Positions 25,375 to 46,079 of a DNA stretch of 64,000 nt are shown here, piece by piece (positions within the stretch are counted from its first letter, which is position 1; each line of letters begins with the position of its first letter). Source of the stretch: Tieghemostelium lacteum (lineage: Eukaryota); contig LODT01000035.1 in NCBI GenBank assembly GCA_001606155.1, positions 484,658-548,657 of the forward strand, read 5' to 3'. The notes under the pieces are model-generated. The model saw only the letters and a program-made list of their open reading frames with translations, was not told the DNA's origin and did no database searches. The position numbers were made by a program, and so were the translations under genes.

Positions 25375-26670
25375 ATGAAAGCTGGAACTAGAACTAGGAG
25401 ATCTACAGCTCTTACTGCAAAAGAATATATTCAAGAGGAAATCGTTATAGATGATGGAAATGAGGATGAAAATGAAAAAGACGAGGTAAATGATATAGAC
25501 GAAGAAGAAGATGACAGCCAAGATTCTGATCAAGACAGACCTAAAAAGAAATTTAAAGCATTTACTAATCAACAACTAAAGTCAATACCAAAAAAACAAC
25601 CAAGTAAAAAGAATAATAAAACAACTAATATAGATAGCGACGAAAAAGATGCTAGTAGTGGTAATAAAAGAAAGAGAAAAGATTCACCATCATCACCAAC
25701 ATCAGAACCAACATCACCAACTATTACAACAAGAAGAACTCTAAAAACCAATAATAACAATAATAAAACTACCAATTTAGATAGTATAAAAACCAAAACC
25801 CAAACAACTAAAAACACACCTTCAAAAACACCCCCACTACCACTAGCAACTAAATTAAATTCAAGTAATGGTAAAATTTCACCTAACAATTCAACACCAT
25901 CCAATTCAAATTCCTCTTCTAGTGTTACTTCACCATTGTTATCATCAACATCATCACCATTGAGCAATACCACAGTAGTACCACCAAAACCAACACTATC
26001 ACCAATACTACCCACAACAAGTATTTTAAAGAAACCAATGATTCAGATTGATTTGAAACTTCAAACAAAATTAATTGAAGAAACGAAGTTAACTGAGATT
26101 TTAAATAGAGAATCACTAAGTCAAAGAATAGAAAAACAAGAGGAACTTGACAGACTCTCAATGATAAAGAAAAAGTTAAATAGAATTACAGGACCTCGAA
26201 TAATATTTAGTTCCAATTCCAATTCAACTTGCATTACATTTTCTGAACCTATACAACAACAACAACTACTACAAATATCGGAATATTTTCAAGTGGCATC
26301 AGATGAATTTAAAAGGTCATCGCCATTGAGCACCCAACAACATTGTATCATTACTGGAGAGAAAGCAAAATATATTGATCCAAAGTCAAAACTACCTTTT
26401 GCCTCTTTGGAAGCTTATAGGCAATTAAGAGAAAAAGATAAAGATAAACAACAACTACAATCCCCTCCTGATCTCTCTTTACGTGATAGTTCAGTTATAA
26501 ATACAAACAGTGATAATAATAATAATAATAATTATAGTATTGAAAGTAAAAAGAAATATATTAATACCATTCATGGTAGTTTAAATCTTTCAACAAGTAA
26601 AAATAATTTAATTTCAAAAAAGAAGAAATCTATTCCTAATATATCAACTTCATATCTGTTAAATAAATAA
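25375..26670 (+). CDS. Vps72 / YL1 (SWR1-complex Swc2-like) homolog, 431 aa
   Basis: N-terminal MKAGTRTRRSTALTAKEY plus acidic stretch, as in YL1. Mid segment ETKLTEILNRESLSQRIEKQEELDRLSMIKKKLNRITGPRIIFSS matches human VPS72 EAKITEELNLRSLETYERLEADKKKQVHKKRKCPGPIITYHS. C-terminal HCIITGEKAKYIDPKSKLPFASLEAYRQLR is the YL1_C motif. ATG at 25375. Confidence 0.7.
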   Translation: MKAGTRTRRSTALTAKEYIQEEIVIDDGNEDENEKDEVNDIDEEEDDSQDSDQDRPKKKFKAFTNQQLKSIPKKQPSKKNNKTTNIDSDEKDASSGNKRKRKDSPSSPTSEPTSPTITTRRTLKTNNNNNKTTNLDSIKTKTQTTKNTPSKTPPLPLATKLNSSNGKISPNNSTPSNSNSSSSVTSPLLSSTSSPLSNTTVVPPKPTLSPILPTTSILKKPMIQIDLKLQTKLIEETKLTEILNRESLSQRIEKQEELDRLSMIKKKLNRITGPRIIFSSNSNSTCITFSEPIQQQQLLQISEYFQVASDEFKRSSPLSTQQHCIITGEKAKYIDPKSKLPFASLEAYRQLREKDKDKQQLQSPPDLSLRDSSVINTNSDNNNNNNYSIESKKKYINTIHGSLNLSTSKNNLISKKKKSIPNISTSYLLNK

Positions 26671-27762
26671 TTAAAAATAGATTATTGTGATAAAAAATAA
26701 TGTAAAAAACGACAAATGCTACAACAAGAAATAATATCCAACTAACATCACCTACAACCAATAACAGTTAAAATGACACGAATTGGTTAAACAGTCATTT
26801 ATATCTACCTTCATTATATCGCCATTATAACGAATCTACCGGATTGGAACCTACTCTATAAGAACCACAATTATTTAGATCATTAGTTGCTGGAAGAAAT
26901 ATTGTGGGACATGATCCAATACATAATCCAGTTGTTGTTGATGCAGGAAGATGTACAATATCAAACATACATTCAAACAGAGTATGCAGTATTAATTCAA
27001 GTAATCAACCATTTCAAGTGATGACTCATACATATACTTTTCAAACATCATAAATAAATGCAATGAAAACTATTTCCTTATCCATGTTGATGATACTTTG
27101 TTTATAAAGTATTTCTGCCGCCTAATCTTCCACAATCTCATCTAATTCTCCGAACAATACAATAGAAGATAATCTTTAAGTTATACCATTTTTGCATAAC
27201 TCTTTTTATTATTCATGTGTATAACCTAATTTGAAAAGTGGGTAATATTATAATCATAATTTATATAAAAATTTGAATTTATTTTTTATATAAAATTAAT
27301 TATTTATGATTTCTTATTGATTACTGCTTTCAGTAAGATTTCATCATTTAAATTATCAATTCTAGAACTTTCTTTAAAAATTATGAATATGGAGCTATCA
27401 ATTTGAATCACTAGGCACCTGATCCATAAATTAAATTCCCATTGTCACCATCACTGGAACTCAATAACTCCGAGTTATTTATTGATAAAAATAATACTAA
27501 TAAGACTATTAAAAAATTTGAATAGATAATAGTAGAATAAAATATTAAATATTAGATGAATTTGAAGTAGAAGATGAAGGAATTATATGTACCCTATAAA
27601 CAATATAGGGAGTTAAAGGGAAAATAAATAGAATGTAAAAGAAAAATAAGAAATTAAGGATAATGTAATTATTACTTAAATTTTAGAAAATACTTATATC
27701 TAGGTGGGTGCTACTAATTTATTTTGCGTTTGATAGAAAGTTTTAGGTTAGGTAAATTGATA

Positions 27763-28571
27763 ATGGATGGAAATATTGTCACAGGATATTCTGAAGGTAT
27801 TATAACACTTCCAAAATATAAATCTGTAATCGGTGTTACATGAATATGGTCATCATATATTATCCTTCATATACAGCTCCAGAGGGTTAGATGGACAAAG
27901 TTTAGGAGGATCGCATGCATTTTGTACGATGGAAACTCCAGATTTAGCGTGGGATGAAGGATATGCAGAAATATTCGGCATTTTGATGTCCAAGGAGTTG
28001 AAGATTTTTGATAATGGAGAGGGTAAAATAATTGGAGGATACGTGGGAAAGGAAAGTTTGATATATCAAACTGATGAAGATATTGAGGATTATTTGATAG
28101 ATGAGAATGGAGAATTTGACGGAGTATATGCATTGGTAAGTTTGATGGATGGGATAACCGAGAAGGATGAATGTAGAATATTATGGATGTAATATACGAA
28201 ACATATATCAAGATGAAGGGAGGATTATTGCAATGCTCTACGATCTGTACGATTTACACAATGATGATAATACCAAATCTATCATACCACGAATTTTAGG
28301 TCAATTCGATACCGCTAAAAATAGAGAATCATTCGGAAAATCTAATCATGGTGACAATAATAAGGAGGATGTACTAAGCATCAAACAAATTCTATTCGAA
28401 ATTCCCATGAACGCCGAAAGTGTTGGATTATCAGGATATATGTTAGCGGCAGAAAATCTCTTCCCCGATAAAGCTCGACAAATCTGTTTGATATTTATCT
28501 ACAATTATGGAGGTTCATCATCGAGTAAATGTGATACTTATGAAGATCGTGTAAGTATATGCCTCCTATAG
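27763..28571 (+). pseudogene. Gluzincin (HEXXH...E) metallopeptidase-like gene remnant spread over three reading frames (27763..27840 f1; 27830..28192 f2; 28167..28571 f0)
   Basis: Frame 2 reads VLHEYGHHILSFIYSSRGLDGQSLGGSHAFCTMETPDLAWDEGYAEIFG. It carries the zinc-binding HEYGH plus a downstream Glu in an EGYAEIF context, as in thermolysin-like and M3-like gluzincins. Upstream frame 1 (MDGNIVTGYSEGIITLPKYKSVIGVT) and downstream frame 0 continue the ORF only after +1 frame shifts. The first two frames have no ATG. The sequence holds many CG-containing codons (tcg, gcg, acg, cgt, ccg) that are rare in neighbouring genes. Confidence 0.5.
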
Positions 28572-28595
28572 AAAATCCCGCTTTTTAAAAATGTT

Positions 28596-29402
28596 TCATC
28601 TGAAGAAATTGTCCATACTATTTCTATTCCTTTTATGCATTCTCACATACAATTTTTCTTCACTTATATATGATAATGAATTATCTTCTGATAAGATTAC
28701 ATATCGATGATCGTGGCATTCCAATTGATCATCTTTAAAAAGCATGACCCAAATTGTAGTATCTTTATCAATATCTATCTCAGTATCAAATTCTATTTCT
28801 GACATGAATTTCTTATATGTACATTTTAGATTTGTAGTCTCTAAGATTGTTTCCGGTCCCGGCATAATTTCTCCATATCCTTTTCTCACTTCCAATCTTA
28901 TATCATCTCCTAAATATCTCGAAAATATCTTCACATCTAAGGTGGAGGATATTCTATTCCCATTTACTGTACAATTATAATAGTTGGCCATGATAATTAA
29001 CTTAGAAACATTTATGGGACATCTTTCCATAATATCACGATTTGTAATCTTGTCGTATCTTCCTAATATGAAAGAATTATTGGTAAAGATTATATACTTT
29101 TCGTCACATATCCGAAAAGATCTTGATTGTATGTCACATATTTTTATGACAGTATCATACCATATTGTAGCTTCGAAGACTACTCTGATAACTTTTCTAT
29201 ATATAGCATTCTTCGTACGTATTCTCGAAATGAGAGTAGATTTACTAAATTCGATTCTTCTTCCTACTCTAACTTCTAAACATCGTTCCTCAATCTTTCT
29301 GAGAGATACTATCTCGATATCGAATGTTCCCTCAATATACATGCCCTCAATCTTAGTCAAAAATAAAGTATCTTCAGAAATAGAAGCTCTAAAATCGTCC
29401 AT
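28596..29402 (-). CDS. Unidentifiable 269-aa ORF convergent on the metallopeptidase remnant (MDDFRASISEDTLFLTKIEGMYIEGTFDIEIVSLRKIEERCLEVRVGRRIEF...)
   Basis: Uninterrupted ORF from the ATG at 29402. The listed ORF extension to 29645 is a minisatellite read-through. CpG-enriched (ccggtcccggc, tcgatatcgaatg, ttcgtacgt). No recognisable domain. Confidence 0.4.
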   Translation of the reverse strand: MDDFRASISEDTLFLTKIEGMYIEGTFDIEIVSLRKIEERCLEVRVGRRIEFSKSTLISRIRTKNAIYRKVIRVVFEATIWYDTVIKICDIQSRSFRICDEKYIIFTNNSFILGRYDKITNRDIMERCPINVSKLIIMANYYNCTVNGNRISSTLDVKIFSRYLGDDIRLEVRKGYGEIMPGPETILETTNLKCTYKKFMSEIEFDTEIDIDKDTTIWVMLFKDDQLECHDHRYVILSEDNSLSYISEEKLYVRMHKRNRNSMDNFFR

Positions 29403-29700
29403 TGATGAATAATGATAGATAAATATTGAATAATGATAGATAAATATGTGATAATGATATATAAATATTTTGAATAAAGATAAAGATTGATAAACAATGA
29501 TGTTCACTACAGATAAATATTTAAATAATGATAAAGTTGATGAATAATGATAATGATAGATTAATATTGAATAATGATAGATAAATATTAAATAATGATA
29601 AAGTTTGATGAATAATGATAAAGATTGATAAACAATGATGTTCACTACAGATAAATATTTAAATAATGATAAAGTTGATGAATAATGATAAAGATTGATA
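29403..29700. repeat. Minisatellite of degenerate 21-22 bp units (aataatgatagataaatattg) including a duplicated unit of about 75 bp (29479..29552 and 29617..29690)
   Basis: Direct visual repeat. It lies immediately 5' of the 269-aa minus-strand ORF. Confidence 0.85.
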
Positions 29701-30532
29701 AATTATATTTTTTTTTATTTTTTTTTAAAAAAAGACATTAATATTTTTTTTTCTACAATTCAAATTTGATGAGTATGATGAATATGATGAATATGATTAA
29801 TATTGATAAAAATTAGTAAATTTTAAAAAAAAAATATATTGATAAAAAATGAAAAATTATATGATATCACACCTAACCAAAATATAGACTCTTTAATTCA
29901 CTTATCCAAAATGAGTGTCTCACCAGCCCCATTTCTTAAAGATCTTTCTTTTAACCCATGGAAAATATTAATGCTCCTCAAACGTTTGCTCGAAAATGTT
30001 GGTTTGAGATGACAGGAAAAAGTGGGTGCATGTTTGATGAAATTTATTTGAGATGACGTGTGTTTGTTCGAAATATATCAGACTTCGATAAACAAACAAA
30101 CGTTCGAAAAAAAAAACAAAAGTAGGAGCATTTAGAAAATAACCCAATATCACAACAAAATCCAAACAATAATTGTAATTTATAGTGCTGATTAAAGATA
30201 ATGATTATATACATATAATGAAGTAAAGAATTAAAGAGTTGTAATGTAATTAAGATTGTATAATATATAAGATTATAGTTCCTATTAAAACATGTATTAG
30301 AATTGTTTAGTATTTATAGTTTTCTTAGAGATTATAGATATTCTATAAATGGAAGTACTATTACTAATTACTATTAGATTATAGTAAGCATAATTGTTTA
30401 CTTATATAGTAATCATCGATATAGTAATTCAATATATCACAATAACACCCTCCACTCCGGCCCTTATATACTGTCTTGGTAAAAAAGATGGTACATAACA
30501 ATGGTGCCAAAGATAAAAAAACAAGTTTTTTT

Positions 30533-30631
30533 CTGCATGTCAATGTGGTCATCCAAAAGACAATCATCCAGGACAAACACAAACCATATACTGTATAGAA
30601 TTGTCTTTTGGATGACCACATTGACATGTAG
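30533..30631. repeat. 99-bp palindromic element: 32-bp inverted repeat (ctgcatgtcaatgtggtcatccaaaagacaat / attgtcttttggatgaccacattgacatgtag, 31 of 32 complementary) around a 35-nt loop
   Basis: Read directly. It generates mirrored ORFs on both strands (MSMWSSKRQ...). Confidence 0.9.
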
Positions 30632-30810
30632 AAAATGTATTTACAGTAAATTTCTTTTTAAAATTTTAGTACTACTTTTTCTTTGATCCAACAGTTGTGC
30701 AGTATAATAATTATAATATTAAATAAACACCTTTTAATATTGTTACAATTTGTTAATTTTATTATAAATAGATACTATTATTGTTATTATTTTAATTTTC
30801 TTCTTCTTGA

Positions 30811-31974
30811 TTATTCTGTATTTTCATGTAATTCTACATCTTGTTCTTGTTGTTTTTCTTCTTCAGAGTGTTCATTAGCTTTTATATAATTATATTTTTG
30901 AATATAATAGTTTAAGATTAATTTTATAATTTGCTTATCTTGTGATTGACCTTTTAAGATTTCAGAGAAATTTTCTTGTGATATTGCTAGTTTTGTTTTA
31001 AATACAGTTGGTGTTATTATTGTTGTTAAATTATCTATACCTATTTTTGTGATTTCTATATTATCAGGTTGAAGTAACTCTGCATAAAATAGGAAAATGC
31101 TATCTAAAACATCATAAAATACAGGTGGTTGAATTGATTTTAATAGATTACTGAGAATAGGTTGTGTTTTTTCTGGATCTTCTATATCATTGTCATTATC
31201 AGTAGTTGTTATAGTAGATTCAGATTCAATTTGTGATAGCTGTTCAGAAATTTGTAAATGTACATTATCAGGTATCAGAGGTTCAGGTAATTCTCTAATC
31301 CATTTCTTTAACAATGATGCCCAAGTGTGAACCTCATATTGATTAATTTCATCACCATATGGATCAAATCCATTATTCGCTAATAATTCTACATCTTTAA
31401 TATTACCATTTATTCTAAAAATACCTTCAGTTTGAAACCCATTCATCTCTTTAATCCTATTCATCAAAAAATCTAAAATCATTGGTATTTTATCTCTATC
31501 TTCGTCATCCTCATCACCCTGTAATTTCATAATTTCCTCTAGAGATACACCAAACATTTTAATTTCTTCTTCTTCTTCTTCTTCTTCTTGTTCTTGTTCT
31601 TGTTCTTGTTCTTCATCTTCATCATCTTCTTCTTCCTCCTCTTTTTCTTGTTCATTTTCATTTTCTGATCCATCATTACCTTGATCACTTTGATCTTCCT
31701 CTTCCTCTTTTTCTTCTTCCTTTTCTTCCTCTTCAGTCTCTTTTTCACTATTGGTCTCTTTTTGACCTTTTTGATCATTTAATGGTGTTTCATTTTTAGA
31801 TTTATCTGTATCTACTGTAGTGAAAAATGATTGTTTTTTATTATCATTTTTATTGTTGTTATTATTATTATTATTATTTCCATCACTTTCATCAGAAGGT
31901 GATTGTGCCATGGAGGCCGCTGCTACATATAAAATGGAAATTAAACAAAACAAAAACACAGAGATTTTGTTCAT
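30811..31974 (-). CDS. RhoGAP domain protein with an N-terminal signal-peptide-like segment, poly-N and an extremely acidic (E/D) tract, 387 aa
   Basis: MNKISVFLFCLISILYVAAASMAQ... then the RhoGAP core GIFRINGNIKDVELL...WASLLKKWIRELPEPLIP...NLTTIITPTVF. The arginine finger lies in GIFRING. Start taken at the AAAATG at 31974. The listed ORF extends to 32046 via a non-ATG start. Confidence 0.75.
   Translation of the reverse strand: MNKISVFLFCLISILYVAAASMAQSPSDESDGNNNNNNNNNKNDNKKQSFFTTVDTDKSKNETPLNDQKGQKETNSEKETEEEEKEEEKEEEEDQSDQGNDGSENENEQEKEEEEEDDEDEEQEQEQEQEEEEEEEEIKMFGVSLEEIMKLQGDEDDEDRDKIPMILDFLMNRIKEMNGFQTEGIFRINGNIKDVELLANNGFDPYGDEINQYEVHTWASLLKKWIRELPEPLIPDNVHLQISEQLSQIESESTITTTDNDNDIEDPEKTQPILSNLLKSIQPPVFYDVLDSIFLFYAELLQPDNIEITKIGIDNLTTIITPTVFKTKLAISQENFSEILKGQSQDKQIIKLILNYYIQKYNYIKANEHSEEEKQQEQDVELHENTE
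31565..31650. repeat. (TTC)n/(CTT)n imperfect microsatellite encoding poly-Glu on the minus strand within the RhoGAP gene
   Basis: ttcttcttcttcttcttcttcttgttcttgttcttg... Confidence 0.9.
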
Positions 31975-32140
31975 TTTATAATAAATAAAAAATCCAAATT
32001 TAAAAAAAAAAAAATTAATCTCCACATTTTGCAAAAAAACTGTCAAATAAGCTTCATTTTAAATTTAGCTTGGGATGGGAAATATTAGTCGTAATAATTA
32101 GATTTTTTAATTTTTTTCTTTTCTTCAAAAGAATGATTGA

Positions 32141-35836: not shown

Positions 35837-36228
35837 TATACGTGTATATACATTGAAGTAATTGAACTATAATCTTGAAATAGATAGTCGAAGTGGGTGT
35901 TTTTACAAATAAAAACTAATTCATAAAAATTCAAATTTTCAATTTTTAATTTATTAAAAAACTGAATAATTTTATTTTTAATGAACATTATAGATTAATC
36001 ATTGTGGAAATAGATATATACAAAACCAAAAATAACAAATCAAATTTGAATTTGAAGAATTTTAATTTAACAAAGATTTTATAGATATCGTATTTTTTTT
36101 CATTTTTTTTGCTAATCAAATTGCGAAAATTAACTAAAATCTTCAACAATAGCATGTTATAAATATTAGTTTTTTTACTCTCTATTTTTTTTTTAAGATT
36201 AAACAACATTTCTTATTTATTAATAGTA

Positions 36229-37923
36229 ATGGATAATAATAATATTAAATATATACCAATAACAACAATAAAAGAAGGGCAGACATTTGATAAGGATTAT
36301 TATCAACAAAAGGCAACACCAGATACACAGTCACCTAAAGATGGATACTATCATGTAAATGTTGGTGTTCAAGTTGTTGATGAACTAAAGAGTGCAACTA
36401 CTATTCGTGTATCAGAGATGGAGAAGAAACTCTTTCAATTGTTAATGACAGTGGTCAGAGAGAGTGGATGTGGATCAACATTGAGAGTTGCAGGTGGATG
36501 GGTTAGAGATAAATTACGTGGTGACAATTCACATGATATTGATATTGCATTGGATAACATGATGGGTGCTACATTTGCTGAATTGGTTAATAAACATTTA
36601 GAAGAAACTCATCAAGAGGTACATAGAATCGGAGTTATTCAGTCTAACCCTGACCAATCGAAACACTTGGAGACTGCAACTGTTAAAGTCTATGACATGT
36701 GGATTGATTTTGTAAATTTAAGATCAGAGACCTATACAGAAGGCTCGAGAATACCTACTATTGATATCGGAACACCTCTAGAAGACGCACTAAGACGTGA
36801 TTTGACAATTAACTCACTGTTTTTTAATATCAATGAAAATTTGATACAGGATTATATTGGCACTGCTATAAAGGATTTGCAGTTGGGTATCATTAGAACA
36901 CCTCTACCTCCATTAACTACATTTCTAGATGACCCTCTACGTGTATTCAGATCTATTAGATTTGCAACTAGAATGTATTTTGCAATTGATAAATATTTGA
37001 TGGAAGCTGCTTCAAATCAACAAGTAAAAGATGCAATTCATACAAAGATTAGTCACCAGAGAATTGCAAAAGAGTTTGATGGAATGGTTACTGGTCCCAG
37101 ACCGGATTTGGCAATACATTTAATTCAACAACTTGGGCTATACCAATACCTCTTTGCATTGCCACCCGGATATAACGAATTGTCAAAAATCAATTATATC
37201 GATGCTTCATGTAACTATATAAACCAAATGATGAGATTAGCTCATTGGGGTGAAAACAGTGAGGAGTTGTCAACTAAACGTGTTAGACTTCTCTCAGCTC
37301 TCATGATACCTTTCCACACACTAACCTATAAAAATCCGCAAAATAAGAATCGTATTCAAACACTTATTCAATATATTCTATTGGACCATTTGAAACTCTC
37401 AAATAAGGACTATGATGATGTAATACTGATTTTAGATTGTGCAAAAATGTTCTTACCTCTTATAACACAGTTTCAAACAAACAATACATTTAATAGAAAA
37501 CTAGTTGGATTGGCAATGGCTAAAGCAGGTGTACTGTGGAGAGCATCTCTATCCATTGCAATGGTCATTGAATTACCAGATCACCAATTTAACTTCACAT
37601 TCCCTATGCATGACAGTGAAGAGACCCCAAAGATCTTTAATCATCATACTCACACACATCCACACCATCAACCAATGTGTGACCAATCCAAAAACATTTG
37701 TCTACTGTATGACCAATTTTGTGCAACTATTGATACTCATGGTCTCATTGGATGTTGGTCTATCAAAAGACTTTTAGATGGTAACCAAGTAAAAGAAATT
37801 CTACAAAAAGCACCTGGATCTTGGTTAGCACCTGTCATTCAAGCAATCTTTGAATGGCAATTAGAAAATCCAACAAAAACAGTTGATCAATGTAAAGAAT
37901 GGTTAATTGCAACCTATAAATAA
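36229..37923 (+). CDS. CCA tRNA nucleotidyltransferase (TRNT1-like CCA-adding enzyme), 564 aa
   Basis: Pol-beta-like nucleotidyltransferase head LRVAGGWVRDKLRGDNSHDIDIALDN (GGxVRD...DxD). Then RRDLTINSLFFN (the RRD motif) and the tRNA-NT body LDDPLRVFRSIRFATRM. Confidence 0.85.
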   Translation: MDNNNIKYIPITTIKEGQTFDKDYYQQKATPDTQSPKDGYYHVNVGVQVVDELKSATTIRVSEMEKKLFQLLMTVVRESGCGSTLRVAGGWVRDKLRGDNSHDIDIALDNMMGATFAELVNKHLEETHQEVHRIGVIQSNPDQSKHLETATVKVYDMWIDFVNLRSETYTEGSRIPTIDIGTPLEDALRRDLTINSLFFNINENLIQDYIGTAIKDLQLGIIRTPLPPLTTFLDDPLRVFRSIRFATRMYFAIDKYLMEAASNQQVKDAIHTKISHQRIAKEFDGMVTGPRPDLAIHLIQQLGLYQYLFALPPGYNELSKINYIDASCNYINQMMRLAHWGENSEELSTKRVRLLSALMIPFHTLTYKNPQNKNRIQTLIQYILLDHLKLSNKDYDDVILILDCAKMFLPLITQFQTNNTFNRKLVGLAMAKAGVLWRASLSIAMVIELPDHQFNFTFPMHDSEETPKIFNHHTHTHPHHQPMCDQSKNICLLYDQFCATIDTHGLIGCWSIKRLLDGNQVKEILQKAPGSWLAPVIQAIFEWQLENPTKTVDQCKEWLIATYK

Positions 37924-38165
37924 ACCAATTCATTTATAATATCCATTTTTTTTTTCATTGCTTGAAATCTATCATTTTTCTAAATTGAAAACATATATTA
38001 TACAATAATTAAAACAATACTAATTTCAATAATATTCGTCGTCAGGAAATTTAAGTAACACTTTTTTCGAAATTAAATTCAAAAAAAATAAAATTTTGAA
38101 TCAAGGAAAAAACTTTTTTTTTTGCTTATCTTTGACCTTTTTGTTTGACACAGAGACTATACACC

Positions 38166-41596: not shown

Positions 41597-42995
41597 TTAT
41601 GATTTGGATTCTTTATTTTCATTTTCTTTTAATTGTTTCTTGTAATTGATTTGTGGTGGTTTATCTTGATTTTGCTTTTTTTCAATAAATTTTGATTTAT
41701 TAAAACCTGTAATTTTGAGAATGGTATGTCTGATCTCATCAATACCAGTCTTATCAACTGAACTACTTTGAATGATATAAGGTAGACAACAAACTAAATC
41801 TCTAAGTTGAATTTTAATGTCATTATAGATTTTCTTTAGAGTGGATGGAGTTGATTTATCCGCTTTGGTAAGAACCATTTGAAATGGTACTTTATGTTCC
41901 TCCAACATTTTCATCACCTCTATATCATTCTTTTTCAAACCAATTCTACTATCAACCAATAAAAATACTTTAAATATCTTACTGGTCAGTAGATACTCTG
42001 AAATACTTTCACCCCAGACTGTAGATTTATTTTTTGAGACCTTTGCATAACCGTATCCAGGTAAATCAACTAAATATAATTTCTCCCACATTTGATAGAA
42101 ATTTACAGTTTTTGTGGTGCCCTATACATTTAAATTTGTAAGTGATATCATTCTTCGTCTACAGAAGTCTCCACCCTACTTTAATACATACAGGTGTTTT
42201 TGAGGTAAATGCCAATTCAGACTTATTCACAAGTGAATTGAGTAAAGAAGATTTACCAACATTTGATTTTCCTAAAAATGCAACTTGTGGATAAGGTTTT
42301 GAAGGAAAATCTGATGACTTAATTGCCATCTTTTCCAACACAACAGGTTTTGAAAAGAAGAGATCAGAAAATCTTTTATCTTCTAAATTCATTGGTTCAG
42401 GGCCTTCAGAAGTTGCCAATTCCACTAGTTCATTTGGAATTCTAACTTTTGAGATCTCCATAGTACCTTGTTCAATCATTAGCTTTTTAAAACGAATTTC
42501 AAATTCAATTTCATTTGCACTACTGTTTTCGTCTGTAAAGAGTCTAGTTGAATTAAGACTATCAATTTCCTCTTGAGTTAGCGGTATTTTGATCTTTGGT
42601 TTTATAGTACTTGATTTAGGTGTCTGTACAGGTTGATCTATAATCTCATTGGTATCCATTTCCATGTCACCATCATTTATATCAAGATTACTATTTACAG
42701 AGTTCATTTGTAGTACTCTGTCTTCAAATGTTATATTTTGATTTAATTGTTTACGTTTTTTAACAATTTCTTCATGAGTAAATTTTATATAGGATTGTTT
42801 CATTCCTTTGTTACTTGGAGTTTGTGGAGATGATTTTCCACCTTTTTTATATTTTCCTTGAAAGTATGATCTAGTGATAAAAAGTGAATTATTGCATCCT
42901 ATTGAATTTTTCAACGAATCTTTAAATAAATTTCCTATACTGTTTAACCATTGATTTGTTGTTAAATGCCTTTGAGATTTGATCAAAAAATTCAT
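41597..42995 (-). CDS. EngB/YihA-type ribosome-biogenesis GTPase (GTPBP8-like), probably organellar; complement(join(41597..42121,42192..42995))
   Basis: G1 motif [17 protein letters not shown]. ...AFTSKTP / [32 protein letters not shown] (G3 DLPGYG). ...LTKADK (G4). A 70-nt intron has a GTATGT donor and a GTATAG acceptor. Basic N-terminal extension. Confidence 0.75.
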
Positions 42996-43924
42996 TTGAT
43001 AAAACGATCGAATTTTTAATTAAATTCAAAAAAAAAATTTTTTTCTCATTTTTAAGAAAAGTGTATCAAAAGATTTGTTATTATAAAAATTATTATTATT
43101 TTAATTTTTAATTTCTATATAATATAGTATTTACAATAACACCCAATACCTCTTTCTTTAAAATCAAACTTTTATTGTTTATCATTTAACTTTTAAAGTA
43201 AAGTTAAATATTATAATTTTAAAATTGTTATATTTAAAAATATTAGTGATTGATGGGGGTTAATGTAAAATAAAGATTAATAACTCAATTTTAATCGAAT
43301 CTCATTGACACAAACATTGATTGATAATGTTTAGATATAAAATAAGAATAGTGATATAAAACATTGTTATTATAATCAAACAAACAATTTGTTTTTAAAA
43401 TCAAAAACACACCTTTCTAATATATATGTATTATAATATTTAATCGCATTTTTATTTTAAAAAATGTGTTAACATAAAAATTGATTATAAAGTTTTGTAG
43501 TCAGTTGTTGTTGAATGAATAAAATATTAAATACACTAATATTAATATAGATAAAAAGTGTGTTTTATTAGTGGTTTATTTGTTGTTATTGATAATGTCA
43601 GCTGAAAAAAATACTGTTTGTTATTGTTAAAAAGTAATTGTAGTATTATCACAGTGACACATTCAAACTACTACTACTAAAAAACCACAAATTTTATTTT
43701 CAAGATTCACTACTATTACCACCGGTAACAGTATATTAATATCAATCGACTTTTAAAATTTTGAGATTTACTAAACACATAAATACACTACCACACCATT
43801 AATAAAAACAAATTTAAATCCAATCAAATGAATTTAAATATATTTAGAGTATACATTGGTATTTTGGACTCCAATGAAAAACGAAATTGATACTATATAT
43901 GTATATATTTTTTTATAACAACAA

Positions 43925-43988
43925 AACACACCACACACATCAAAAAAAAAAAAATATTTATATAAAACAACACACCCACACTCACAAC
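43925..43988. promoter_or_regulatory. CA-rich elements (acacaccacacacatc ... caacacacccacactcacaac) in the 3.1-kb intergenic region
   Basis: C/A-rich tracts (GT-rich on the other strand) resemble Dictyostelium CAE / G-box promoter elements. Confidence 0.3.
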
Positions 43989-44250
43989 TATACATTTTCA
44001 TGTTTGTCTTTTAAATAAATCTATAGTGTCAGAGTGAAAAATAGTGCTTTAATTATGTGTAAAGTAAAATATGTATTAATTTTATAATTAATAAAATGTT
44101 TAAACATTGTTTTTATAAAATTTTGATGTACTTTGTTGTTATTTATTTTCTATCCCCAGTGAGAGTGTAGTAAATACTAACAGTTATTTGGATAGGGAAT
44201 GAGAGTGTGTGGTATTTGTTTTATTAAACACTCGAAATGTATCTGAAAAT

Positions 44251-44286
44251 ACACACCCACACCCCACAAAAACACCCCCACACATA
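44251..44286. promoter_or_regulatory. CA-rich element acacacccacaccccacaaaaacacccccacacat
   Basis: As above. Complement is GTGTGGGGG...GGTGTGGGTGTGT, a G-box-like motif. Confidence 0.3.
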
Positions 44287-45230
44287 ATCTTACCATGTAT
44301 TATAAAATTTTTTGGTCAAATTAAATAGTAATCGTAGTACACCCAAATTAAAATTTGTATATTGGATCAAATATTGTTGTTATTGTATTTATCACAATTG
44401 GTTTTGTATTATATTGAAACTCTAAATTTAAATATCAATTTTCTTATTATTATTATTTTTTTTTTAATATTATAATATTACATTTTGTTGCTGCTGTTTT
44501 ATAAATTTTATTTGAATTCTTCCAAATATATATAAATCTATTAAAAGATATATTTCATATATTTTAAATCATTTTATTATTTTTTTTTTTTAAAATTAAC
44601 ATTACAAAATATCTTCCACATATATAAATTCACAATACAACCATAGTTTTTGTATCCCCCTACCAAATATATTCATCTAAAATATTTTAGTTTTTACATT
44701 TTACATTTTTGGATCTTTTTTTTCCATATTTTCAAAGGTAAGAGAAAAACAACAAATTTCAATCAATCAATCAATATTATATTGTTTTTTTATTACAATT
44801 TATTTCATGTTATCCAAATTAATTTTTATCATTTAAAATATGAAACAAGAACCTAAGAAATAGTAGGCAAATCTGCAAATTAATTAAATTAACAAAAAAA
44901 AAACCCACACATATTACACAATTGGATTTGGTGTTTACATCTGTAATTTATTTTAAAAGTAATTTTTGTTTTCCACTTTTTTTACTTATTTTTGGTACTT
45001 ATTATAAAATATATATACTTTAAAATTTTCTATCTCTCTTTCTGTCTATTGTCTTTTCATTTTAACAAAAATTTAGAAAAATAACTGTTTGTTTCATTGC
45101 CTACTGTGTTAGTAAATAGATAAAACAACAATAAGAAATGTAAAAATTTAAAAAAAACTTTCCATCTTTGTCTAATTTAATATAGTTTTCCAATTGTCAC
45201 CATTTATCCAATCATAGATTAGTTTTGGTT

Positions 45231-45379
45231 TATATGTGTGTGTGTTTGTGTGTGTGGGTAAAAAATATTTATGTGTGTGGTTTGATATTTAAGATTTACT
45301 TTATGTTGATGGTGATGATGTTGGTGTCTGTCTATTCTATTTATATAGACCCAATTTTTGTGTGGGTGTGTGTTTTATG
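45231..45379. promoter_or_regulatory. GT-rich / TGTGGGTGTGTG G-box-like elements (45231..45259 and 45356..45379) about 0.8 kb upstream of the homeobox gene
   Basis: tatatgtgtgtgtgtttgtgtgtgtggg and tttttgtgtgggtgtgtgttttatg. Confidence 0.35.
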
Positions 45380-46079
45380 TAAATGGGATGATACTCTATT
45401 TACTCATATTTTTAAAATCTATATAATATATGTTTATATGGGTTTTTTTTTTAATGGAGATATCAATCTATCAAAAAAAATCACCCATTCTTTTGTTTTT
45501 TTTCCAATGGGGAAGAATGGGAGTATTTACTTATTATAGATTAAAAAGTATCAGAATAATATTAATAATGGTGTCCAATACCACACCCACAAAAATACAC
45601 TGTAAAGATATCTCAACTAAAACTTGTTATTTCAATCTTTACCTTTATTAATTGTTAAAAATCAACTAAACAAACTATTGTTTTTTAATTAAATCTGTTT
45701 TTATTTAGATATTTAAAACTGTGTTATAAAGATCTTATCTCACTCTCTTTGATATTTTGAAAAGATAATTATTGTTCTATCTATCTATGCTTTTGTTATT
45801 GCAAACACTTGTTGTCATCTAACTAGAATTTTAAGAAAAAAAAAATTCAATATTACCAACAAACATCAAATAATTCTCATCTTTTGACTTTAACACACAT
45901 ACCGCTTGTTGTTGTTGTTGTTGTTAGTTTAATTAATTAAAAATTTCACTTTATTTAGTTTTTTTCAAATATTTATATATTTATAGAATTTATTTAATAT
46001 TAATAGAAAATATTTATATATTAATATAATTTATTTATTATTATTTTAAAATTATTATTGTTATTATAATTGGTTAATA

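What the first reader, a model, noticed from the sequence alone, without database searches (positions are those of the whole stretch)
27760..29702. CpG-enriched island: a frameshifted gluzincin metallopeptidase-like gene converges on an unknown 269-aa ORF. Candidate foreign (horizontally acquired) or mobile-element-derived DNA.
About 1.9 kb of sequence behaves differently from the surrounding Dictyostelium-type genes. (1) The plus-strand reading frame carries an unmistakable zinc-site HEYGH plus a downstream Glu in EGYAEIFG (the HEXXH...E gluzincin arrangement). It is broken into three frames by two +1 shifts, and its first two frames have no ATG. That pattern fits a decaying gene or one needing programmed frameshifts. 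(2) Both this ORF and the convergent minus-strand ORF (MDDFRASISEDTLFL...) use CG-containing codons at several-fold the density of neighbouring genes (about 25 CpG per 750 bp versus about 7 in an exportin exon). That skew suggests a non-dictyostelid origin. (3) Neither protein resembles the housekeeping families seen elsewhere in the window. I could not place the minus ORF in any family at all. (4) The block is bordered by a 21-22 bp minisatellite on one side and by atypically complex, ORF-free DNA on the other. Nearby there is also a perfect 32-bp inverted repeat.
Basis: partly seen in the sequence, partly recalled or inferred. Interest (0 to 1): 0.85.

Follow-up and report, generated by a model that had tools for sequence, protein, structure and literature searches.

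The report
CpG-normal islet with two orphan genes
A 1.7-kb stretch of the social amoeba Tieghemostelium lacteum has a base composition unlike the rest of the genome and holds a transcribed but broken protease-like gene facing an intact, unannotated gene of a species-restricted family; it may be recently acquired DNA, but no donor or mobile-element feature was found.

Summary
The window comes from Tieghemostelium (Dictyostelium) lacteum, not D. discoideum. Positions 27760-29402 have CpG observed/expected 0.95, against 0.33 for the rest of the window (P about 1e-9 to 1e-11), and they lack the host's TpG/CpA excess.

The plus strand carries HEYGH plus WDEGYAEIFG, split by two +1 frameshifts. RNA-seq-like contigs from two independent runs match positions 27704-28716/29064 at 100% without gaps. 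The shifts are therefore real, the locus is transcribed and no intron rescues it. It is best read as an expressed pseudogene. Only its tail is annotated, as DLAC_07937. The gluzincin reading rests on the motif alone: Pfam, NCBIfam and PDB gave nothing, and the AlphaFold model was unusable.

The minus ORF (28596-29402, 268 aa) is intact and unannotated. A full HMMER scan of 1.84 billion proteins found only three relatives, all from T. lacteum. The ORF models as two tandem, internally duplicated Ig-like beta-sandwich domains.

No tRNA, terminal repeat, transposase or outside homologue supports transfer or mobility. A foreign or young origin is plausible from composition only. The plus ORF has not had a sensitive nr-scale search. 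Interest is modest.

The parts
27704..28716 (+). Unspliced transcript across the broken metallopeptidase-like locus. Two assemblies share the 5' end at 27704/27706. L004 ends at 28716 and L003 runs on to 29064.
   Evidence: Logan contigs L003 (ERR3252994) and L004 (ERR3252995) match the window at 100% with no gaps. That these runs are T. lacteum RNA-seq is inferred from L002 and PMC6873476.
27763..27840 (+). Frame A: ATG followed by 25 codons (MDGNIVTGYSEGIITLPKYKSVIGVT*). This is the putative original start of the gene.
   Evidence: Translation. The ATG lies 59 nt downstream of the contig 5' ends.
27827..28192 (+). Frame B: carries HEYGH (27839-27853) and WDEGYAEIFG (27950-27979). It has no ATG before the motif. 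The first +1 shift falls within 27827-27840.
   Evidence: The joint motif appeared in 0 of 200 Markov simulations of the window, but the pattern was defined after seeing the sequence.
28155..28571 (+). Frame C: the C-terminal part. The second +1 shift falls within 28155-28192. Positions 28233-28571 are annotated as DLAC_07937 (KYQ91036.1, 112 aa).
28596..29402 (-). Intact, unannotated 268-aa gene. The product has two tandem, internally duplicated Ig-like beta-sandwich domains (residues 1-117 and 134-247) plus a C-terminal helix. It is a member of a family found only in T. lacteum.
29406..29703 (.). AT-rich minisatellite (21-bp unit; 70- and 138-bp higher-order repeats) immediately upstream of the minus-ORF ATG. 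It contains no CpG.
27830..29400 (.). Extent of the CpG-normal composition: CpG o/e about 1, TpG/CpA about 1.0, GGA- and ATA-rich codon usage.

Best explanation
A compositionally young islet of about 1.7 kb sits in the largest gap between long ORFs in this T. lacteum window (26671-30810). It holds two convergent genes restricted to this lineage.

(1) The plus strand gives an unspliced transcript (27704 to about 28716). It runs across a reading frame with a thermolysin-type zinc-site motif (HEXXH, then EGYAE 35 residues on). Two genuine +1 frameshifts have broken that frame. Only 25 codons precede the HEXXH, and the catalytic frame has no start codon. I read it as an expressed pseudogene, probably a 5'-truncated relic, that makes no active protease.

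(2) The minus strand holds an intact 268-aa gene with no signal peptide-like N-terminus. Its product is a tandem duplication of a roughly 110-residue Ig-like beta-sandwich domain with a conserved C-terminal tail. It belongs to a small, fast-diverging family seen only in T. lacteum, and it most likely acts as a binding or adaptor protein. That function is inferred from the fold only.

The two 3' ends overlap, because ORF ends are 24 bp apart and the plus transcript covers the last ~40 codons of the minus ORF.

The block lacks the host's genome-wide CpG depletion and TpG/CpA excess. This means the DNA has not been exposed for long to the host's CpG-decay regime. The likeliest reason is recent arrival or recent copying from an unsampled source (import, or a resident selfish or viral lineage). 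This last step is inference from composition only.
For: - Organism: four window ORFs are exact T. lacteum proteins.
- Composition: CpG o/e 0.95 against 0.33, P 3e-9 to 6e-12; TG/CA 1.0 against 1.24. Both ORFs lie outside the range of 19 host ORFs for CpG (0.92-0.95, host maximum 0.46) and in dinucleotide distance to the window (0.22-0.26, host 0.04-0.15). Gly codon GGA is 62-78% against 26% in the host.
- CpG depletion with TpG excess is described as a genome-wide Dictyostelium trait (bioRxiv 10.64898/2026.03.01.708701).
- Frameshifts and transcription: L003 and L004 are 100% identical and ungapped, with a shared 5' end. No GT..AG solution was found by inspecting the sequence.
- The three frame segments contain no in-frame stop codons, which points to recent inactivation.
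- Minus ORF family.
- Fold and internal duplication.
- The minus ORF is unannotated: there is no self-hit in the full scan and no exact record.
Against: - The minus ORF's only homologues are paralogues in the same genome at 24-28% identity. That fits an old resident family better than a fresh import. One paralogue transcript (L001) has intermediate CpG (o/e 0.73).
- No donor homologue turned up in bacteria, archaea, metagenomes, viruses, plasmids or phages.
- No integration or mobility signature was found.
- Part of the non-CpG dinucleotide and codon deviation could reflect the Ile/Asp/Glu-rich amino-acid composition and low expression.
- The metallopeptidase identity is motif-level only.
- Minus-gene transcription is only suggested, by the L003 extension to 29064.
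Confidence: 0.55

Rival explanations
1. This is a native, fast-evolving T. lacteum gene pair with no foreign input. On this reading the odd composition comes from amino-acid content, weak codon adaptation in poorly expressed genes and local mutational or repair heterogeneity. The plus gene simply died in place.
For: The family is confined to T. lacteum, with deep paralogues. There is a host-like AT-rich promoter/5' region and a defined transcript start. GGA and ATA preference overlaps the upper range of host genes: host per-gene GGA reaches 0.57 and ATA 0.45. No mobility signature or donor was found.
Against: CpG o/e near 1 together with loss of the TpG/CpA excess is hard to obtain in DNA long resident in a genome where both long-ORF DNA (0.31) and other DNA (0.36) are depleted. 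No other 800-bp window exceeds 14 CpG, against 24 here.
Confidence: 0.25
2. The block is a fragment of a resident mobile element or endogenous virus whose multi-copy ORFan families diverge quickly. On this reading the block is a dead partial copy.
For: The composition is distinct and shared by both ORFs, and partly shared by a paralogue. One paralogue (DLAC_05339) sits on a 12-kb unplaced contig. There is a pseudogene next to an intact ORF, and the block is bordered by a minisatellite.
Against: The 4.1-kb gap holds no transposase, reverse transcriptase, integrase or capsid ORF. There are no terminal or flanking repeats. IMG/VR, BFVD and PHROGs gave only nonspecific hits. Paralogues are only about 25% identical, unlike recent transposon copies.
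Confidence: 0.15
3. The plus locus is a working metallopeptidase gene that is decoded through two programmed +1 ribosomal frameshifts.
For: Both shifts are +1. The transcript retains them. No segment contains an in-frame stop.
Against: Neither site has a recognisable +1 slippery motif (inspection). Programmed +1 shifting is not known as a dictyostelid trait (own knowledge). Only 25 residues precede HEXXH. There is no family-level homology.
Confidence: 0.03
4. The block is an assembly artefact or contaminant DNA.
For: The composition is aberrant and the ORFs are orphans.
Against: The block is embedded in a 1.54-Mb scaffold between exact T. lacteum genes. Independent read sets reproduce it, including the junction with AT-rich host-type upstream DNA. 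The paralogues are T. lacteum proteins.
Confidence: 0.02

Closest known systems
Gluzincin metallopeptidases (MEROPS clan MA(E): thermolysin-like M4/M36/M9, M1, M61, Pfam Peptidase_MA_2)
   Same: An HEXXH is followed about 35 residues later by an EG[aromatic]AE segment that could supply the third zinc ligand. The sequence is HEYGHH...WDEGYAEIFG. The resemblance to M9, M36 and M61 motifs is recalled from memory and is only a lead.
   Different: No Pfam, NCBIfam or PDB sequence hit even at E <= 1-10. No usable structure model (pLDDT 33). Only 25 residues precede the motif. The frame is broken twice.
T. lacteum hypothetical proteins DLAC_11744 (KYQ90153.1) and DLAC_05339 (KYQ93553.1), plus an unannotated transcribed paralogue (Logan ERR3252990 contig, P0002)
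   Same: Full-length similarity of 24-28% identity. Same length class, same two-domain layout, and conserved RVG..EFSKS, T[IL]W and C-terminal EEER..RLF...D.FF[RA] motifs.
   Different: Very divergent. The function of all members is unknown. The window copy is unannotated and sits in CpG-normal DNA, whereas the one paralogue with DNA available has intermediate CpG (o/e 0.73).
Tandem Ig-like/FnIII beta-sandwich modules (Ig-like domain pairs of GH2 glycosidases, Vibrio RbmA, transglutaminase C-terminal barrels, ASF1-type sandwich)
   Different: Sequence identity is 5-13%. The matches are generic for the fold and scattered over unrelated functions. No secretion signal or catalytic partner domain is present.
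Horizontally acquired genes in Dictyostelia (for example diguanylate cyclase dgcA, PMC10559540)
   Same: A lineage-restricted gene in an amoeba that feeds on bacteria, marked by a compositional anomaly.
   Different: Known cases have clear prokaryotic homologues. Here no donor homologue exists for either ORF.

Membership tests
Gluzincin metallopeptidase (clan MA(E)) | HEXXH zinc-binding motif | tested here: met
   HEYGH at 27839-27853. HEXXH alone is expected about 3.7 times by chance in the six frames of this window.
Gluzincin metallopeptidase (clan MA(E)) | Glu third ligand about 18-40 residues downstream, in a conserved E-containing helix motif | tested here: met
   WDEGYAEIFG lies 35 residues after the second His. 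The joint motif appeared in 0 of 200 simulations, with a post hoc pattern. This is motif level only; ligand geometry is untested.
Gluzincin metallopeptidase (clan MA(E)) | Significant profile or sequence similarity to a peptidase family | tested here: not met
   Pfam: 0 hits at E <= 1. NCBIfam: only an irrelevant hit at E 0.006. PDB phmmer: only dUTPase at E 2.2. No robust nr-scale search was possible.
Gluzincin metallopeptidase (clan MA(E)) | Zincin alpha/beta fold | tested here: inconclusive
   Single-sequence AF2 gave pLDDT 32.8 and pTM 0.21.
Gluzincin metallopeptidase (clan MA(E)) | Continuous ORF with a start codon | tested here: not met
   Two +1 shifts are present in the genome and in two independent transcript-like contigs.
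DLAC_11744/DLAC_05339 family (uncharacterised, T. lacteum) | Significant full-length sequence similarity | tested here: met
   E 1.6e-8, 1.6e-4 and 3.9e-4 against 1.84e9 proteins. Reverse tblastn of the three proteins hits only 28599-29366 in the window.
DLAC_11744/DLAC_05339 family (uncharacterised, T. lacteum) | Two homologous beta-sandwich domains plus a conserved C-terminal tail | tested here: met
   Alignment A1, AF2 model, hhalign of the N half against the C half at 95.7%.
Horizontally transferred island | Composition deviating from the host | tested here: met
Horizontally transferred island | Closest homologues in a donor lineage outside the host clade | tested here: not met
   Minus ORF: only T. 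lacteum hits in the full scan. Plus ORF: nothing in pattern or tblastn scans, but those scans have low sensitivity.
Horizontally transferred island | Absence from the syntenic site in relatives | not testable with these tools
   No dictyostelid genome DNA was accessible. T. lacteum genes are not in the contig index.
Transposable element or integrated virus | Terminal repeats or target duplication, a transposase/RT/integrase/capsid gene, multiple similar copies | tested here: not met
Programmed +1 frameshift gene | Conserved slippery or stall site and a trans-frame protein | not testable with these tools
   No known motif was seen by inspection. No proteomic or ribosome-profiling data were available.

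The most novel reading that the evidence does not exclude
The islet may be the remnant of a recent integration from an unsampled AT-rich donor that is not CpG-depleted, for example a virus or selfish element of dictyostelids. To my knowledge no virus has been described for this group. On this reading the tandem beta-sandwich family would be one of the donor's fast-diverging multi-copy ORFan families. The convergent zinc-protease-like gene and beta-sandwich gene might originally have formed a functional pair such as a protease and its binder or inhibitor.
Probability: 0.1. Interest if true: 0.7.

Novelty: new member of a known kind. Interest (0 to 1): 0.35.

Why it matters
Three things follow if the reading holds.

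- It adds an unannotated, probably functional gene to the T. lacteum gene set. It also corrects DLAC_07937, which is the tail of a frameshifted, transcribed pseudogene and not a 112-aa gene.
- It defines a species-restricted family of tandem-duplicated Ig-like proteins.
- The sharp CpG-normal block in a CpG-depleted genome is a cheap marker. Scanned genome-wide, it could show whether dictyostelid genomes carry a class of recently arrived DNA. That bears on gene transfer, and on hidden viruses or selfish elements, in bacterivorous social amoebae.

On present evidence this is a modest curiosity and not a demonstrated transfer.

Tried and rejected
- **Introns as the cause of the frame changes.** The only GT..AG options near shift 1 delete HEYGH and run into a stop. 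The GTAAGT at 28136 has no acceptor that gives frame C. The transcript-like contigs are collinear with the genome.
- **Sequencing error.** Rejected: two independent runs reproduce both shifts, and there is no homopolymer at either site.
- **Word-indexed protein searches** returned nothing or almost nothing. They also missed identical or known members (P0008-P0010, P0001, P0002), so I treat them as uninformative.
- **Pattern scans** of IMG/VR, metagenomes and bacterial/archaeal genomes, run with single proteins and with alignment A1. Pattern matches occurred, but none was confirmed by tblastn.
- **tblastn of the plus ORF** against plasmids and phages: no match.
- **PHROGs, PADLOC, Pfam on A1, and a PDB profile search:** nothing significant.
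- **Rfam** on 26.5-31 kb: only a sub-threshold miRNA-like hit on the hairpin.
- **Flanking repeats** between 26.6-27.8 kb and 29.4-30.8 kb: only chance 9-13-mers.
- **Exact look-ups** of the minus ORF (268-aa and 349-aa versions) and of T. lacteum paralogues in the contig index: not on record. I therefore could not obtain the paralogues' genomic context.
- **AF2 of the joined plus ORF:** unusable.
- **afdb50 fold library:** unavailable.
Full report
**Origin of the window.** Four long ORFs of the window are exact matches to annotated proteins of Tieghemostelium (Dictyostelium) lacteum on a 1.54-Mb scaffold: KYQ91024, KYQ91031 (Vps52), KYQ91040 (tRNA nucleotidyltransferase) and KYQ91045. The window has 29.5% G+C and a CpG observed/expected ratio of 0.35.

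**Composition.**
- Positions 27760-29402 contain 42 CpG in 1643 bp (o/e 0.95). The rest of the window has 444 in 62,357 bp (o/e 0.33).
- Poisson P is 6e-12 from host density and 3e-9 after allowing for the block's own C and G content.
- The seven 800-bp windows richest in CpG all overlap the block (16-24 CpG). The maximum elsewhere is 14 and the median is 5.
- At 300-bp resolution the CpG-normal stretch runs from about 27830 to 29400 and stops at the CpG-free minisatellite. A small second cluster lies at 29983-30105.
- Host depletion affects long-ORF DNA (0.31) and other DNA (0.36) alike. It comes with a TpG/CpA excess of 1.24-1.25, which the block lacks (1.01-1.03).
- CpG depletion with TpG enrichment is described as a general Dictyostelium genome trait (bioRxiv 10.64898/2026.03.01.708701).
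- Both ORF regions lie outside the range of 19 host ORFs. CpG is 0.92-0.95 against a host maximum of 0.46, and ApT is 1.24-1.43 against a host maximum of 1.06. Mean dinucleotide distance to the window is 0.22-0.26, against 0.04-0.15 for host ORFs.
- Codon usage differs too. GGA makes up 62-78% of Gly codons against 26% in the host (Fisher P 3e-4 and 2e-3). CpG-containing codons are 3.7-4.2% against 1.3%.
- Part of the non-CpG deviation may reflect the Ile/Asp/Glu-rich proteins and weak codon adaptation. The CpG/TpG signal cannot be explained that way.

**Plus strand.** Three reading-frame segments follow each other:
- Frame A, 27763-27840 (ATG, MDGNIV...).
- Frame B, 27827-28192 (SVLHEYGHH...WDEGYAEIFG...).
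- Frame C, 28155-28571.

Each change of frame is +1. HEXXH alone is expected about 3.7 times by chance in the six frames of the window. HEXXH followed within 10-70 residues, without a stop, by E[GA][aromatic/aliphatic][AST][acidic/polar] occurred in 0 of 200 Markov simulations. That pattern was written after seeing the sequence.

Nothing beyond the motif supports a peptidase:
- Pfam gave no hit at E <= 1.
- NCBIfam gave only an irrelevant marginal hit.
- PDB phmmer gave only dUTPase at E 2.2.
- PHROGs and PADLOC gave nothing.
- A single-sequence AlphaFold model was unusable, with pLDDT 33.

The similarity of HEYGHH...WDEGYAEIFG to the zinc sites of M9, M36 and M61 is my recollection and only a lead. 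Only 25 residues precede HEXXH, fewer than a zincin N-terminal subdomain normally needs. From this I infer that the gene is also 5'-truncated.

**Are the frameshifts real, and is the locus expressed?** Exact look-ups of ORF B and ORF C found both together on two short Logan contigs from different runs: L003 from ERR3252994 and L004 from ERR3252995. These align to window 27704-29064 and 27706-28716 at 100% identity with no gaps.

A sister run, ERR3252990, carries a 1790-bp contig (L002). It covers the T. lacteum tRNA-nucleotidyltransferase ORF plus about 63 and 31 nt of flank. Contig sizes, the tight flanks and the shared 5' end at 27704/27706 indicate transcript assemblies. A 2019 paper describes stranded poly(A)+ RNA-seq of T. 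lacteum vegetative, spore and stalk cells, deposited as E-MTAB-7824 (PMC6873476). The link between those run numbers and that study is my inference.

Three conclusions follow:
- Both frameshifts are present in independent reads.
- The transcript is unspliced. No GT..AG combination rescues the frame by inspection.
- The locus is transcribed.

The three segments contain no internal stop codons, so inactivation looks recent. The genome annotation calls only the last 112 codons (28233-28571) as the hypothetical protein DLAC_07937.

**Minus strand.** ORF 28596-29402 (268 aa) is intact. A full HMMER scan of 1.84 billion representative proteins gave three hits and no self-hit: P0001 (E 1.6e-8), P0002 (1.6e-4) and P0003 (3.9e-4). 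The ORF is therefore unannotated.
- P0001 and P0003 are T. lacteum DLAC_11744 and DLAC_05339.
- P0002 is encoded on a 977-bp transcript-like contig of ERR3252990, the same run that yields the exact T. lacteum housekeeping transcript. It is a fourth, expressed T. lacteum paralogue.
- Reverse tblastn of the three proteins hits only this ORF in the window.
- The four proteins align end to end at 23-25% identity. They share RVG..EFSKS and T[IL]W motifs, and three of the four share a C-terminal EEER..RLF...D.FF[RA] tail.
- With this shallow alignment AlphaFold gives pLDDT 77 and pTM 0.71. The model has two beta-sandwich domains (1-117 and 134-247), a disordered linker and a C-terminal helix.
- The two halves are homologous to each other: BLASTP E 0.005, and hhalign probability 95.7% with E 8.6e-9.
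- Profile and pattern scans found no relative in PDB, Pfam, bacterial/archaeal genomes, metagenomes or IMG/VR.
- The paralogue transcript L001 has intermediate composition: CpG o/e 0.73, and GGA at 71% of only seven Gly codons.

**Surroundings.**
- The islet lies in the largest gap between ORFs of at least 250 aa in the window, 26671-30810.
- The 21-bp minisatellite at 29406-29703 abuts the minus-ORF start codon.
- The window has no tRNA genes, no second copy of the block and no flanking direct or inverted repeats.
- The gap holds no transposase-, RT- or capsid-like ORF.
It lies near the 3' end of the neighbouring minus-strand gene and shows no visible link to the islet.

**Interpretation.** The descriptive part is well supported. 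The locus holds an expressed, twice-frameshifted relic with a gluzincin-type zinc motif. It converges on, and overlaps at its 3' end, an intact unannotated member of a T. lacteum-only family of internally duplicated Ig-like proteins.

The origin is less clear. CpG o/e near 1 without a TpG/CpA excess argues that this DNA has not long experienced the host's CpG-decay regime. That favours recent arrival or recent copying from a compartment with a different regime. Against a simple transfer:
- The only homologues are deep paralogues in the same genome.
- No donor is detectable.
- There is no integration signature.
- The transcript has a normal host-type start.

I put about 0.55 on 'young, lineage-restricted islet, donor unknown, with an expressed pseudogene plus an intact orphan gene'. 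I put 0.25 on a purely native fast-evolving pair, 0.15 on a fragment of a resident element or endogenous virus, and a few percent on programmed frameshifting or artefact.

**Limits.**
- The word-indexed protein search failed to return even identical sequences (against 85). Its negatives carry little weight.
The plus ORF has therefore had no sensitive nr-scale search.
Synteny, presence/absence and genome-wide CpG surveys remain to be done.
- Transcription of the minus gene is only suggested, by L003 extending 348 nt beyond L004 into its coding region.

Noticed in passing
window 30529-30635: A strong hairpin with 36-nt arms, one mismatch and a 35-nt loop. RNA fold is -60.1 kcal/mol with z -11. 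Rfam gives only a sub-threshold mir-142-like hit (25 bits, gathering score 57). It lies about 175 bp from the stop-codon end (30811) of the minus-strand ORF 30811-32046.
   Followed up: partly
window 29983-30105: A second small CpG cluster (7 CpG in about 125 bp) in ORF-poor DNA beyond the minisatellite. It contains repeated GTTCGAAA and TTTGAGATGAC motifs. It could be a further remnant of the same block or a regulatory element.
   Followed up: no
window 28596-29645 (minus strand): The minus ORF's frame stays open for 81 more codons upstream of the ATG, straight through the minisatellite (YHY/IFI-rich low-complexity translation). The mechanical ORF is therefore 349 aa from a GTG. Neither the 268-aa nor the 349-aa version is on record as a called gene.
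   Followed up: partly
window 28233-28571: The annotated gene DLAC_07937 (KYQ91036.1, 112 aa) is only the last part of frame C of the frameshifted locus. The annotation looks like a mis-called pseudogene fragment.
   Followed up: yes
window 42800-46000: A very AT-rich stretch (G+C 20-23%). It has the largest dinucleotide deviation in the window apart from the islet, with CpG o/e 0.06-0.5, GpC about 0.3 and TpG about 1.4. It is probably low-complexity intergenic DNA.
   Followed up: no
window 26710-26840: A minor cluster of 5 CpG in 130 bp just downstream of the ORF that ends at 26670. No ORF or repeat is associated with it.
   Followed up: no
L002 against window 36166-37954: The transcript-like contig of the tRNA nucleotidyltransferase differs from the genome by a single 1-nt gap (99.94% identity). 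The contig's called gene still translates exactly to the window ORF. This is an RNA/DNA or assembly indel.
   Followed up: no
tool behaviour (against 26, 85): The word-indexed homology search missed sequences that are in its own collection and identical to parts of the query (P0008, P0009, P0010). It also missed two of the three family members used to build the query profile. Its negatives should not be read as absence.
   Followed up: yes
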